Shown: piece by piece, positions 146 through 62,093 of the stretch
Layout of the letters: each line of letters begins with the position of its first letter
Position numbering within the stretch: the stretch's first letter is position 1
DNA from: Chrysomallon squamiferum
Taxonomy: Eukaryota > Animalia > Mollusca
Length of the DNA: 64,000 bases
NCBI GenBank assembly: GCA_012295275.1
Contig: CM022667.1
Span: 6,572,001 to 6,636,000 of the forward strand
Direction: 5' to 3'
Notes under the pieces: model-generated
The model's input: only the letters and a program-made list of their open reading frames with translations
Databases searched by the model: none
Told to the model about the DNA's origin: nothing
Program-made: the position numbers and the translations under genes

Positions 146-1529
146 CTAGCGTAGCTCGGTCGTACTGAGGGTGAATTCTGACAGCTGAGATGAATTTAAC
201 TTCTTCGACTACGACACCCGCGTTGTCAGGGTCGGTGTCCGTCGCCTCCGTGTTGTACTCCCCAACTACGACGGTGGCAGTTGACTGCTGGGTTTCGCTG
301 AACGTTTCGATGAAGCTGAAATACAACATCAGTTGTTAAGTCAGTGATGAGCGACTACAGCAGAGACGTGGACAACGTGCTGAAGAGATGAACGGGGGAG
401 AAAAGACGTTGAAGTGGTGAAAGATGTGATAGTAATTCAAGACATACAAAATATTACATGTTACTAGTGTACGTTACAGTGCAGGTTATAAAATATAAAA
501 CAAAAATATGTATTTACTTTTTGATTAATAGGGATTACAAAGTTTTTAAAGTGAATTTGTGTTTGTATCTATTTATGTAATTTAATTTAATTTTATTTTA
601 TTTTGTTTTGTTTTATTTTATTTTTTAATTTTTATTTTTTATTTTTTATTTTTATTTTATTATTATTATTATTTTTATTATTATTATTTTTTTTTTTTTA
701 TGTCTGTATATCTATTTTCAGTTAGCGGGTGAGACATATATACACAGAGGGACAGAAAGACAAAGAAAGAGAGCCAGACAACAGAGCAGAGACACAGATA
801 TACAGGCAGAGAGACAGAGACAGACAGAGAGACAAACCTAGCACACACTGCTGTGGTTATCACAGTTCCGGTGTTGAGTATTGAACCCGCGCACACTGTC
901 AGGTTTGCGTTCGGGAAACTCGGGTAGTTAGGAAAGAAGAAGCGCAGTGAGACCATAGAAGAGAACGGCCACTGACACTGTGCAAACCTCTCTCCGCCAA
1001 ATATCCTTCCGCTTATAGCAGCTAGTCCACATCTCTCTGAAAACAAAGCAGTACCATGATTATTATTATTATTATTATGATTATTATTATTATTATTAAT
1101 ATTATTATTATTATTACTATTACTATTATTATTATTATTACTATTACTATTATTATTATTATTATTATTATTATTATTATTATTATTATTATTATTATTA
1201 TTATTATTATTATTATTATTATTATTATTATTATTATTATTATTATTATTTGGATATTATTAATTGTTTGTTTGTTATTTGCTTAAGACAATCCTATACT
1301 TCTTTATATATATATGTAAAATGATACATTCCACTGTGTAACTTCTTTCTAAAAGTACAACCAATGTTCAGCAGTCCACAGAGTACATGTGGGTTATTTC
1401 GGTTTAACAAACTGTCACAATCCAACATTTAAAAAATAACAGACGAATGAAGCGTGTTAAAAAGAACTTACGTGATGTTACTGAAGTCAGAAGAAAAGTA
1501 AGAACCACGAAACGAAATAAAAAGTTCAT
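146..1529 (-). CDS. Gene A (3' part runs off the window): secreted S1A serine protease homologue, catalytic His replaced, no N-terminal module
   Basis: Exons 1472-1529 (signal peptide MNFLFRFVVLTFLLTSVTS), 838-1036 (CGLAAISGR|IFGGERFAQCQWPF...CAGSILNTGTVITTAVC; TAAHC becomes TTAVC) and 146-315 (VVVGEYN...VRIHPQYD). Phases 1/2/1 match the paralogs. The last donor appears to be GC. Confidence 0.8.
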
Positions 1530-3219
1530 TCTCGCTGTCTCAACGTGCAAAATCTCCCAATTTCTCTCTCTGCACCGAAATTCCTCAACTTTTTTTATTT
1601 TATTATCTTTTTCTCTTTTCACCTTGTTCAGCAGTGAAAGTGGTCTACTGTGATACACGTGAAACTCCTGTTTAGTAATTACGTATTCAAATCAGCATCC
1701 ACCTCCTGTACAAACAAACACGCTTTTAATTCAACTCAGTCTTTCAAAGAAATTTCTTTTGTTCGTGTTCTGTTTGTACATAGACGTTTACCCGAGTTTG
1801 AAGAGCACTCAGTCTAAAATGATCAAATCTTTGACGACTCAGATGAGACCAGGTTGAGTGTGATAACGGAGTGCAAACTGTCGCAGTCTGCTACACTTGT
1901 TAGTCAGAGGTAGTGTGAGTATTTACACATGTAAGCCAAAAAAAAATAAAAAATACGATTGAAAAAAAGTCTTGTCAATATTCGTGTGAAAATAGGATAC
2001 AAAAGCGAGTGTATATACAGAGGTAACATCCCCACCGCCTAAAAAAAAAAAAAAAAAAAAAAAAAAAAAAAAAAAAAAATCTTCAGTATACAATTGAATA
2101 AGGGAATGAAAAAAAAAAAGAAAGATATAAAAATATATGAAAAACATACAGATGTAAACCAGAAAAAAATAAATATATATAAAATAAAAAAAAAAGTAAA
2201 TATAAATATATATCTTATTAACACACACAATTAAAAATCGGAACAGCCTATATGTATACTGAAGTAAATTACACAAAGAAAAATGTCACTATACAATAGA
2301 CATTAAAAAAGAAACACGATGTAAAAAAATAAAAAATAAAAATAATAATAATAATAATCAGCCTGTCAATCTACATCTGAAATTAGGGGAGGAAATCGTG
2401 ACTCTATACAGCTGTAAGCCAAACAAATCGTGTCACGTCAGTACACAAGTGAAATGTCTGTGTGAACTGAGAGCAGGCGGTGACAAGTCAATACAGGCGC
2501 AGTTTCTTATTTTAATTACAAACTCAATTCATCTTCCGTGTACCGGGCTGAAGCAAACATGTCCTGGACGTATGTAAATAACTCTAAAAATATTGTACAA
2601 AAAAGTAGTACCTGTACTTAATCAGGATGTTATGATATCAATACGCGTGGGTTGTTAGCCTTTTGTGACGTAAAATCTGATCTTGATGAGAATGCGTCAT
2701 GTTTCTGTGTCTGTTTTCTTTGCTAATAATTATGTAAATAAAAATAATTTCATTTATAAGAAGGAAAAATTAACTAGAATTCTACTAGTTTTCATTTAAG
2801 GATTTAATAAGATATCTTTAAAATATTATTCTATACTACATATCTACATATTTATGTATATAAAATTATATATGTACAATACAGTATAGTACTGTATAGA
2901 AAATATAGTACTGTATGACAAGGTTTGGTATAGTATGGTATAGCACAGAATAGTACAGTATATAGCACAGCGTACTGTAGTATAATGTGGTATGGTATAG
3001 TATAATACAGTGCAGTGCAGTAAAGTTCTCTAAACAACAACAGTTAAACATCGAATATGTGCAGTGTTAAAAAATTTGAGAAATTTCAAAAGTGTGTACT
3101 GACTAAGAATACTGATTTTCAGTCTGTTTTTGATTAGTGTAAAACAAAGTTGTCTCCCTTGAACTGCAGACTGTCGCTCAAGAAAGCAAATCGTGAATTT
3201 TTATAAATATTTCTTTTAA

Positions 3220-60400: not shown

Positions 60401-62093
60401 ATGTATGTATGTATGTATGGATGGATGAATGGATGTATATTCTATCCAAAGCTCTGATTATTGACACTGCTGAACAGACATACATTGAACATTTATCTGT
60501 GTTAGTTTAGTCTAACTGGACAAGCAAAGGAAATGTCACCCGTAAAGCCAGTACGTTTCATTTCAGAAGCATGTATGTTTATTAATTTAACGATATATAT
60601 ATATATATATATATATATAGAGAGAGAGAGAGAGAGAGAGAGAGAGAGAGAGAGAGAGAGAGAGAGAGAGAGAGAGAGAGAGAGAGAGAGAGAGAGAGAG
60701 AGAGAGAGAGAGAATGAGAGAAAGACAGACAGACAGACAGACAGTCAGACAGACAGTATATTTACATACAGAAACAAGCGAACACACAGAGACAAGTTAC
60801 GACAGAAGCAGAACGGTACATGAAACAAGCAAACAGACATTATTTCAAACAGCTGTCGTTATGACTGAAACACTGTTCAGTCTGGTGTAAACTAAGCAAG
60901 CTACACAAGTAATCATCTACAAGGAACCAAACTACGTCATCTACAACGTCAACTAGAAATGAATTACGTTCTGATAACAATCCCGACGTGTCTAATGCTG
61001 GAGTAGCTGTAGTTGTAGTTGTTGTCGTAGTCGTAGTCTTATCATCTGTTGTAAATTTGTATATTTATTTCTATTCCAATGACATTATATAATAATAAAC
61101 AACATCGTGATACCAATTAGAGTACTACAACAATTATAAAATGAGAAAGATTAAAATATTTGTTTATGTATTTATTTTTATTATTTATTTATTTATTTAT
61201 TTATTTGTTTACGAAGTTTATTTTTCTATAATTACTATTTATTATTATCATTATTATCATTATTGTTATTATTAGTAGTAGTAGTAGTAGTAGTAGTAGT
61301 ATATTAAACTTACGTTGGCTGTCACACTCGCACTCGTTGTAGACTCCTAACAAGCCGATGTAGCCGTTGTCGATGTACTGCTTCCAGACAGCACAGTACC
61401 TGTAGTCAGCACACCAGTCTGAAACAACGAAAACTGATATTTGAGATTATCAGTGAGCTTATCTGATCAGTTGATATAATTATTTTAAATAAACATACAA
61501 GAAGGTTTATTGTAACAGATATTCTAAAAACTAGTTAATTAATTAACTAATTAAACTGAATAAATTAAACACGTAAATAAATTAAAAACTATTTCATTTA
61601 TTAAGTAAATTAATACATAAGTAAATAAATTAGAAAGTACTTAATTAAGTAAGTCAAAAAAATAAATTGTAAAATAGAAATTATTTAATTAAGTAAATTA
61701 ACAAATAAGTAATTGAATTAGAAAATATAAAACTGATAAATAAGTAAATGAATTAGAAAGTATTAAAACTGAAAATAAAAATGAATTAGAAAGTATTTCA
61801 AAAACTAATAAATAAGTAAATGAATTAGAAAATATTAAAACTGATAAATAAGTAAATGAATTAGAAAATATTAAAACTGATAAATAAGTAAATGAATTAG
61901 AAAATATTAAAACTGATAAATAAGTAAATGAATTAGAAAATATTAAAACTGATAAATAAGTAAATGAATTAGAAAAAATAAAAACTGATAAATAAGTAAG
62001 CGTAGACTCACACGGGACCGCTGTGGATTGTGGCAGACGCACTAAAAGAGCGACAGACACCAGACACAGTCCTAGCAGGCCACACAAACTCAT
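57442..62093 (-). CDS. Gene I: secreted active trypsin-like serine protease with one four-Cys module and a Thr stalk (paralog of H)
   Basis: Exons 62012-62093 (signal), 61314-61418 ([31 protein letters not shown]), 60968-61045, 59583-59778 (LR|IVGG..TAGHC), 59121-59248, 58809-58943 (HDIAVL), 57850-57992 (GGKDAC) and 57442-57600 (GDSGGPL...VRRS*). Confidence 0.9.
58125..58865. repeat. Tandem copies of the gene I exon-6 3' end plus donor, spaced by (CA)n
   Basis: atatttacctttgaggatgccccagcctgacgtcagacagagagttcctgcagctacacgcac recurs at about 58135, 58397 and 58675, with degenerate copies near 58245, 58525 and 58580. Confidence 0.88.
61690..62000. repeat. 36-bp AT-rich minisatellite next to the gene I first donor
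   Basis: aaaactgataaataagtaaatgaattagaaaatatt, about 8 copies. Confidence 0.85.

What the first reader, a model, noticed from the sequence alone, without database searches (positions are those of the whole stretch)
146..62093. Co-oriented nine-gene cluster that looks like a self-contained extracellular protease/pseudoprotease cascade
Seen: three proteases with an intact triad and S1 Asp189 (D RDSC, H KDTC, I KDAC), five homologues with broken triads, and one protease-free gene (E), all secreted and head-to-tail. Every protease-type gene, including the dead ones, keeps Arg before the mature N-terminus (R|IFGG, R|IFNG, R|MLGG, R|IYGG, R|ISNG x2, R|VVGG, R|IVGG) and the linker Cys that pairs with Cys122. 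Known: Asp189 enzymes cut after Arg/Lys, and arthropod clip-SPs work with catalytically dead clip-SPH cofactors in melanisation and clotting. Inference: the active members could process each other and the pseudoproteases, with N-terminal modules supplying targeting. That would be a lineage-specific immune, clotting or matrix-setting cascade built from non-clip modules.
Basis: partly seen in the sequence, partly recalled or inferred. Interest (0 to 1): 0.85.

Follow-up and report, generated by a model that had tools for sequence, protein, structure and literature searches.

The report
Snail protease cluster with defensin-like caps
A snail genome carries a tandem run of nine genes for likely secreted proteins (three with intact trypsin-type active sites, five catalytically dead copies that keep the cut site that switches such enzymes on, and one with no protease part), capped by swappable defensin-like, VWA or unnamed modules, so it likely works like the insect clip-protease defence networks, although the idea that the nine form a self-contained cascade is untested.

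Summary
Nine minus-strand genes with AG/GT introns are present. D, H and I have intact triads and Asp189; A, B, C, F and G are dead; E has no protease exon. All 8 protease-type genes keep Arg before the mature N-terminus and the linker Cys. All 7 complete ones keep Asp194 and 12 shared cysteines, including an extra Cys25/Cys117. A stop codon in B is absent from an independent run. The dead genes are under purifying selection (dN/dS 0.27-0.35). The caps sit on phase 1-1 exons: seven 6-Cys beta-defensin-like modules (weak matches only), three VWA domains, and three copies of an unmatched 4-Cys module. Gigantopelta aegis has a C-like VWA-pseudoprotease. Best reading: a tandem S1A family that likely works like arthropod clip proteases and their dead cofactors. 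The cascade is not shown: Arg at P1 and the linker Cys are common in S1A zymogens, no initiator-type protease is present, the window cuts gene A, and no RNA evidence was obtained. This scan noted a similar defensin-capped cluster before in abalone (unchecked note), so the system is probably not lineage-specific.

The parts
57442..62093 (-). Gene I (341 aa): signal, 4-Cys module, Thr-rich linker, S1A protease with intact triad (R|IVGG, D189-A190, G216, G226). Exons 62093-62012, 61418-61314, 61045-60968, 59778-59583, 59248-59121, 58943-58809, 57992-57850, 57600-57442
   Evidence: Pfam Trypsin on two exons
49186..55386 (-). Gene H (505 aa): signal, 4-Cys module, Thr-rich, 4-Cys module, Thr-rich, S1A protease with intact triad (R|VVGG, D189-T190, G216, G226). 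Exons 55386-55317, 54772-54665, 53936-53610, 53210-53103, 52822-52688, 51901-51706, 51424-51294, 50660-50526, 49792-49647, 49347-49186
41645..47547 (-). Gene G (386 aa): signal, two 6-Cys modules, short Thr-rich linker, dead protease (R|ISNG; Q57, N102, T195; D189 and D194 kept). Exons 47547-47451, 46969-46853, 46394-46221, 45785-45623, 43868-43732, 43437-43297, 42868-42714, 41821-41645
34559..39858 (-). Gene F (462 aa): paralogue of G with a longer Thr-rich linker; dead protease 92% identical to G. Exons 39858-39768, 38792-38676, 37784-37386, 37261-37099, 36598-36453, 36231-36091, 35421-35267, 34735-34559
27640..32203 (-). Gene E: signal, two F/G-type 6-Cys modules, Thr-rich linker, VWA domain; no protease exon of its own. 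Exons 32203-32104, 31998-31882, 29603-29316, 28844-28284, predicted last exon from 27662
   Evidence: 3' end not resolved
17935..24638 (-). Gene D (382 aa): signal, one 6-Cys module, Thr/Arg-rich linker, S1A protease with intact triad (R|IYGG, D189-S190, G216, A226). Exons 24638-24548, 23375-23115, 21598-21551, 21451-21298, 19709-19579, 19173-19021, 18501-18353, 18096-17935
10502..15137 (-). Gene C (470 aa): signal, VWA, dead protease (R|MLGG; T57, D102, D195; D194 kept). Exons 15137-15080, 14681-14121, 13053-12861, 12390-12251, 12035-11880, 11569-11415, 10651-10502
   Evidence: G. aegis counterpart P0013
4256..9221 (-). Gene B: signal, VWA, dead protease (R|IFNG; A57, D102, E195; D194 kept). 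In-frame TGA at 6206-6204 in the window, absent from a contig of run X7. Exons 9221-9158, 8956-8405, 7652-7460, 6309-6185, 5835-5692, 5007-4853, 4405-4256
142..1529 (-). Gene A, cut by the window end: signal directly followed by a dead protease (R|IFGG; V57). Exons 1529-1472, 1036-838, 315-142
   Evidence: assignment by alignment, no Pfam hit on exon 2 alone
46273..46967 (-). 6-Cys beta-defensin-like modules of G (46967-46854, 46392-46273); others at 38790-38677 and 37782-37663 (F), 31996-31883 and 29601-29482 (E), 23373-23254 (D). Spacing C-x6/7-C-x3-C-x11/15-C-x5/7-CC
53104..54770 (-). Unmatched 4-Cys module C-x5/6-C-x2-W-x2-YI-x2-GY-x2-L-x3-Y-x2-C-x-C: H copies 54770-54666 and 53208-53104, I copy 61416-61315; predicted two-helix hairpin
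14122..14679 (-). Single-exon VWA domains with a DxSxS motif: C 14679-14122, E 28842-28285, B 8954-8406
   Evidence: Pfam PF00092 E 1e-48, 1e-47, 1e-38; motif

Best explanation
This is a tandem array of related S1A protease genes in a snail, three with intact active sites and five dead, whose likely secreted products carry swappable front modules and likely act as a clip-like network in which the dead copies are cut at the kept Arg and then serve as binding cofactors or decoys. Shown: the gene anatomy, the residues, purifying selection, and phase 1-1 module exons shared between genes (E joins F/G-type 6-Cys modules to a C-type VWA). Inferred: origin from one ancestor by duplication and exon shuffling; cleavage at Arg by a trypsin-like enzyme, which may be D, H or I but need not be; residue 16 docking on Asp194; the front module staying tethered through the linker Cys-Cys122 bond and targeting the protein to microbes, matrix or a substrate. 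A defence or wound-sealing role is the most likely setting, by analogy only.
For: All 7 complete domains share intron phases 2-1-1-0 in the protease part and 12 cysteines, including extra Cys25 and Cys117 (C has a 13th). The three PDB alignments shown lack Cys25. dN/dS is 0.27 for B-C, 0.35 for F-G and 0.19 for H-I; 6-Cys modules give 0.23-0.37 where measurable. Arg15, Gly19 and Asp194 are among 35 invariant columns of 220, while His57 and Ser195 are lost. The G. aegis protein P0013 is 73% identical to C over the VWA region and keeps the linker Cys, Arg-Met-Leu and Cys25. The module-linker-protease layout with a linker-to-protease disulfide is the CLIP layout (PMC12111086 passages), and insect SPHs are cleaved cofactors (PMC11818254 passages). 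The 6-Cys modules match beta-defensins weakly in four searches.
Against: Retention of the switch is only suggestive: 11 of 35 non-C/G/W/P columns invariant in the three active enzymes are also kept in all four complete dead ones, so two named columns would both survive by chance about one time in ten. All defensin matches are below cut-off (best Pfam E 0.003, 18.4 bits against 22.2; model pLDDT 61; Z 2.1). Monophyly of the array is not tested, since the tree has no outgroup. There is no functional or expression evidence, so the immune setting rests on analogy.
Confidence: 0.5

Rival explanations
1. An ordinary tandem array: paralogues with separate jobs (gut, mucus, reproduction, matrix). The Arg site and linker Cys persist because they are ancestral and help the fold, not because the proteins form a network.
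For: P1 Arg and the Cys1-Cys122 link are common in S1A zymogens (established knowledge; factor IX aligns with R-VVGG). Background retention of conserved columns in the dead genes is 31%. The caps are of three unrelated kinds.
Against: Arg is kept in three divergent dead lineages (A, B/C, F/G; 27-42% identity between them) and in G. aegis, together with Asp194 where visible. E carries modules from two neighbours but no protease, which fits a shared binding context.
Confidence: 0.33
2. One reading: a self-contained cascade in which D, H and I activate each other and all the dead members, with no outside protease.
For: Three Asp189 enzymes and eight Arg sites are chemically compatible; H and I have G216/G226 pockets.
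Against: Known cascades start with an autoactivating modular protease and mix P1 specificities (PMC11818254, PMC10732536 passages). No member here has such an architecture and all P1 residues are Arg. D has Ala226, which I recall narrows the pocket and shifts trypsin towards Lys. The window cuts the cluster. Any trypsin-like enzyme elsewhere in the genome could cut these sites.
Confidence: 0.13
3. The dead genes are decaying pseudogenes, or F/G is an assembly duplicate.
For: Stop codon in B in the window; F and G exons 4, 6, 7 and 8 are 98-100% identical.
Against: The stop is absent from the X7 contig. dN/dS is 0.27-0.35. Of the 12 listed X7 differences in B exons, 6 are silent, 6 change a residue and none is a stop. 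F and G differ strongly in exons 1, 2, 3 and 5.
Confidence: 0.04

Closest known systems
Arthropod clip-domain serine proteases and homologues (CLIP, PF12032/PF18322; Manduca SPH1/SPH2, Tenebrio SPH1, PPAF-II)
   Same: Signal, small 6-Cys module ending in CC, linker, linker Cys and S1A domain; active and dead forms side by side; dead forms keep a cleavage site.
   Different: No CLIP profile match; module spacing is that of beta-defensins; VWA and an unmatched 4-Cys module are used as alternative caps; no initiator; mollusc host; no function shown.
Beta-defensin / big-defensin C-terminal fold (PF00711, PF13841)
   Same: Six-Cys order and spacing, GxC motif, mostly cationic (net 0 to +5); weak matches in four searches.
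   Different: Below curated cut-offs; fused to proteases or VWA rather than free peptides; antimicrobial activity untested.
Complement factor B/C2 (CCP-VWA-S1A; recalled)
   Same: VWA directly before an S1A domain in B and C; DxSxS motif present.
   Different: No CCP modules; protease dead; an Arg site lies between VWA and protease; the listed VWA relatives were collagen VI/matrilin-type and integrin domains, none named factor B or C2.
HGF/MSP beta-chain pseudoproteases (recalled)
   Same: Dead S1A domain that keeps the Arg site and the residue16-Asp194 switch.
   Different: No PAN or kringle modules; no receptor known; model by analogy only.
Gigantopelta aegis XP_041376635.1 (annotated collagen alpha-4(VI)-like)
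   Same: VWA 73% identical to C, followed by the same linker Cys, Arg site and Cys25.
   Different: Has two VWA domains, and its model leaves the protease frame after about 35 residues, so the protease part is unannotated.

Membership tests
S1A trypsin-like proteases (PF00089) | Trypsin profile match | tested here: met
   9 of 12 single exons tested; activation exons of I, H, G, D, C and B and last exons of I and D exceed the cut-off... see full report: A exon 2 and the last exons of G, C and B gave no hit
S1A trypsin-like proteases (PF00089) | His57-Asp102-Ser195 and Asp189 | tested here: met
   D, H and I. Not met in A, B, C, F and G, which are homologues
S1A trypsin-like proteases (PF00089) | Proteolytic activity after Arg/Lys | not testable with these tools
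   Inferred from residues only
Clip-domain SP/SPH | CLIP family profile match for the N-terminal module | tested here: not met
   0 of 7 modules hit a CLIP model at E up to 10 (HMMER filters drop most hits above 0.1); the module profile hit no clip chain in the PDB sequences
Clip-domain SP/SPH | Clip fold and disulfide pattern | tested here: inconclusive
   Low-confidence model (pLDDT 61); no clip chain listed
Clip-domain SP/SPH | Module-linker-protease layout with a linker Cys | tested here: met
   D, F and G; layout described in PMC12111086
Clip-domain SP/SPH | Sequential activation and cofactor role in melanisation or Toll signalling | not testable with these tools
   No expression or biochemical data
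Beta-defensin fold | Six-Cys spacing ending in CC | tested here: met
   7 of 7 modules; the consensus spacing is recalled
Beta-defensin fold | Pfam gathering score or a clear fold match | tested here: inconclusive
   4 of 7 hit PF13841 or PF00711, all below cut-off; Atlas 0.78; avian AvBD11 Z 2.1, rmsd 2.4, 31 aligned
Complement factor B/C2 | CCP modules plus an active protease | tested here: not met
   B and C are signal-VWA-dead protease
VWA domain (PF00092) | Profile match above cut-off; DxSxS | tested here: met
   3 of 3

The most novel reading that the evidence does not exclude
Snails run their own extracellular protease signalling network, parallel to the insect clip system but capped by beta-defensin folds, VWA domains and a new two-helix 4-Cys module. 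This locus encodes both its activators (D, H, I) and its cleavage-switched dead cofactors (A, B, C, F, G), with E as a free targeting or decoy subunit.
Probability: 0.22. Interest if true: 0.75.

Novelty: new variant of a known kind. Interest (0 to 1): 0.5.

Why it matters
My ten literature searches returned no description of a snail counterpart of the arthropod clip protease/cofactor system. This locus gives a concrete parts list for one, with named cleavage sites that N-terminomics can test directly. It also gives two architectures that current annotation misses (defensin-like cap on a protease; VWA on a dead protease, mis-named collagen VI in G. aegis) and an unmatched 4-Cys module. If the members act independently it is an ordinary, well-preserved case of duplication, exon shuffling and loss of catalysis.

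Tried and rejected
No whole genome is held for the window, so the rest of the cluster and synteny could not be read. Expression: the run search gave no RNA holder above 0.06 of the words. On 5280-12090, RNA or possible-RNA runs X8, X9 and X1 gave only 32-42 base pieces among those listed and no spliced joints; on 6176-6330, X8, X9 and X10 laid nothing. This is no evidence about expression. Homologue searches: a 46-aa protease exon of I found 2 candidates, none significant; the 6-Cys alignment found none of 1001 candidates at E up to 1. The 4-Cys profile against 1.84 billion representatives gave 1 hit (E 1.6e-4), a repetitive sequence matching 13 of 35 positions, rejected. It also gave no Pfam, PDB-sequence, Atlas or Foldseek hit and only generic helix-pair matches (best Z 3.6). 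A 35-column, 3-sequence profile is weak, so this does not prove the module is new. The two small modules are unrelated to each other. The metagenome scan gave 1 locus at 41% identity, uninformative. No tRNA or Rfam hit. The tree of 7 protease domains (A left out as truncated) groups D/H/I apart from F/G and B/C, but has no outgroup and flagged long branches. Shell-matrix role: the stored part of supplement 3 of PMC11871041 (peltospirid shell and sclerite proteomes) has 0 hits for IPR001254, trypsin domain, chymotrypsin or Peptidase S1. That file was cut when stored and file 4 was unreadable, so this is a weak hint only. No complex prediction was run, because every protease domain spans five exons and no full-length relative was retrieved. 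The PPAF-II structure paper is not held. A regex mis-picked C's His57 motif; the alignment is the correct reading.
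Full report
Setting. The window is 34% G+C, rich in simple repeats, and no whole genome is held. The VWA exon of gene C finds its closest relative in the vent snail Gigantopelta aegis (76% identity; the next best of 57 hits is 51%), so the animal is probably a related gastropod. 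The species was not determined.

Observation. I read the minus strand, listed splice candidates and built nine gene models, named I to A from right to left. All introns are AG/GT, the genes lie 1.3-3.6 kb apart, and eight models have no internal stop. tblastn found no further gene and nothing on the plus strand. D, H and I have the full triad and Asp189. F and G have Gln57/Asn102/Thr195, C has Thr57/Asp102/Asp195, B has Ala57/Asp102/Glu195, and A has Val57 before the window cuts it. Pfam Trypsin was matched by 8 of 12 single exons tested; A exon 2 and the last exons of G, C and B gave no hit alone (the count of 9 in the first membership row is a slip, 8 is right). All eight protease-type genes have Arg before the mature N-terminus and a linker Cys 7-19 residues upstream. 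All nine start with a hydrophobic stretch.

Two loose ends. B carries TGA at 6206-6204. A 218-base contig of run X7 (depth 28) matches the window from 6312 to 6207 and then leaves it; its printed loose end, read by hand, continues the frame with the His-Pro motif that C has at this place. B is therefore intact in that run. Of the 40 differences listed (26 more were not shown), I classified those in B and C exons: B 6 silent and 6 changing, C 2 and 3, no stops. E ends its VWA exon with a phase-1 donor at the same place as C. The strongest acceptor downstream (27662) adds seven residues and a stop; read-through and an in-frame join to D exon 2 are also possible. No RNA settled this.

Common origin and selection. 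The seven complete protease domains share intron phases 2-1-1-0 and 12 cysteines at the same columns, including Cys25 and Cys117; C has a 13th. With the five standard disulfides assigned from established knowledge, Cys25-Cys117 is left as a sixth pair; this is an inference. Identities are 57% (H-I), 56% (B-C), 92% (F-G) and 24-42% otherwise. dN/dS is 0.19 (H-I), 0.27 (B-C) and 0.35 (F-G), with synonymous sites near saturation in the older pairs. The tree separates D/H/I from F/G and B/C but has no outgroup, so monophyly is untested. F and G are 98-100% identical in exons 4, 6, 7 and 8 but 70-82% in exons 1, 2, 3 and 5, which suggests patchy gene conversion.

Modules. Every cap lies on a phase 1-1 exon. 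Seven 6-Cys modules (two each in G, F and E, one in D) have spacing C-x6/7-C-x3-C-x11/15-C-x5/7-CC and net charge 0 to +5. Four of seven match beta-defensin Pfam models below cut-off, and none matches CLIP. The profile's only PDB hits are two beta-defensins (E 0.89 and 6.2), the Atlas's best hit is a beta-defensin cluster at 0.78, and a weak model (pLDDT 61) aligns to avian AvBD11 at Z 2.1, last of 8 rows. 'Beta-defensin-like' is thus consistent but not proven. Three single-exon VWA domains (B, C, E) are clear. Three copies of a 4-Cys module (H twice, I once; 38-43% identical to the first row) are predicted as a two-helix hairpin (pLDDT 79.5) and matched nothing credible. E combines F/G-type 6-Cys modules with the VWA closest to C's (dN 0.35 against 0.59-0.67 for pairs with B), which points to shuffling within the array.

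Mechanism. The dead members keep P1 Arg, a hydrophobic residue 16, Gly19 and Asp194 while losing His57 and Ser195. G. aegis XP_041376635.1 keeps the same linker Cys, Arg site and Cys25 behind its VWA domains. In S1A proteins the new N-terminus pairs with Asp194 after cleavage (established knowledge); in HGF-type pseudoproteases this switch controls binding (recalled). I therefore think the dead members are most likely cut and then act as cofactors or decoys, with caps tethered by the linker disulfide. The support is modest: 11 of 35 comparable columns are kept in all four complete dead domains, so both switch residues would survive by chance about one time in ten. The setting (defence, clotting, matrix) is by analogy only.

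The cascade claim. In insects an autoactivating modular protease starts the cascade and SPHs are cleaved cofactors (PMC11818254, passages). In Drosophila ModSP prefers P1 Leu and Grass's substrates carry an unusual His (PMC10732536, passages). Here all sites are Arg, no member has an initiator architecture, D has Ala226, and the cluster runs off the window. Compatibility of three Asp189 enzymes with eight Arg sites is real, but it would hold for any trypsin-like enzyme in the animal.

Literature and earlier notes. Ten searches listed no paper whose title or opening abstract describes a defensin-capped or VWA-capped protease cluster in a mollusc. The library lacks most subscription journals, and I read only passages of PMC11871041 (plus supplement searches), PMC3039611, PMC11818254, PMC12111086 and PMC10732536; all other papers were seen as search listings. 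Unseen supplement parts may bear on the shell-matrix idea. That clip domains share the defensin cysteine order but fold differently is recalled, not from a call. An unreviewed note from this scan reports a defensin-like cap on abalone pseudoproteases in a similar cluster (e1-9071531). I had reached the defensin-like reading before seeing it and could not check it; it is a lead, not support, but it lowers 'lineage-specific'.

Verdict. A real and well-described locus; a new variant of a known kind (clip-like protease/pseudoprotease array with other caps). Best explanation 0.5, independent paralogues 0.33, self-contained cascade 0.13, decay or artefact 0.04. Interest 0.5.

Noticed in passing
window 29603-31323, 35421-35689, 42868-43093, 19709-20686, 6309-6562, 58162-58830: Tandem repeats that copy a splice site together with the exon end: 31 local copies of E's exon 3 acceptor, 7 and 6 of the F and G exon 7 acceptor, 5 of D exon 5, 4 of B exon 4, and 4 of I's exon 6 donor (up to 3 mismatches). 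They could give alternative splice ends.
   Followed up: partly
window 31647-31609 (-): Decayed copy of the start of E's second 6-Cys exon (79% identity over 39 nt, in-frame stop).
   Followed up: partly
window 37261-37099 and 45785-45623 (-): The activation-site exon of F and G is 160/163 identical although its intron flanks are unrelated and neighbouring exons have diverged; looks like exon-limited gene conversion.
   Followed up: partly
window 21451 and 11569 (-): Two exons need an unusual GAG acceptor in my models (D exon 4, C exon 6); could be real or base errors.
   Followed up: no
window 12035-11880 (-): C has an unpaired 13th cysteine in a loop insertion after Cys122, a possible inter-chain link.
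   Followed up: no
window 41821-41645 and 34735-34559 (-): F and G keep Asp189, Gly193 and Asp194 but have Phe and Thr near 216 and 226, so the S1 pocket is probably blocked.
   Followed up: no
P0013 (XP_041376635.1): The G. aegis model named collagen alpha-4(VI)-like contains the start of a C-type pseudoprotease and then leaves its frame; likely a mis-annotated member of the same cluster.
   Followed up: partly
window 26810-27090 and 24650-25230: Non-repetitive, more G+C-rich stretches between E and D with no assigned coding role; possibly regulatory.
   Followed up: no
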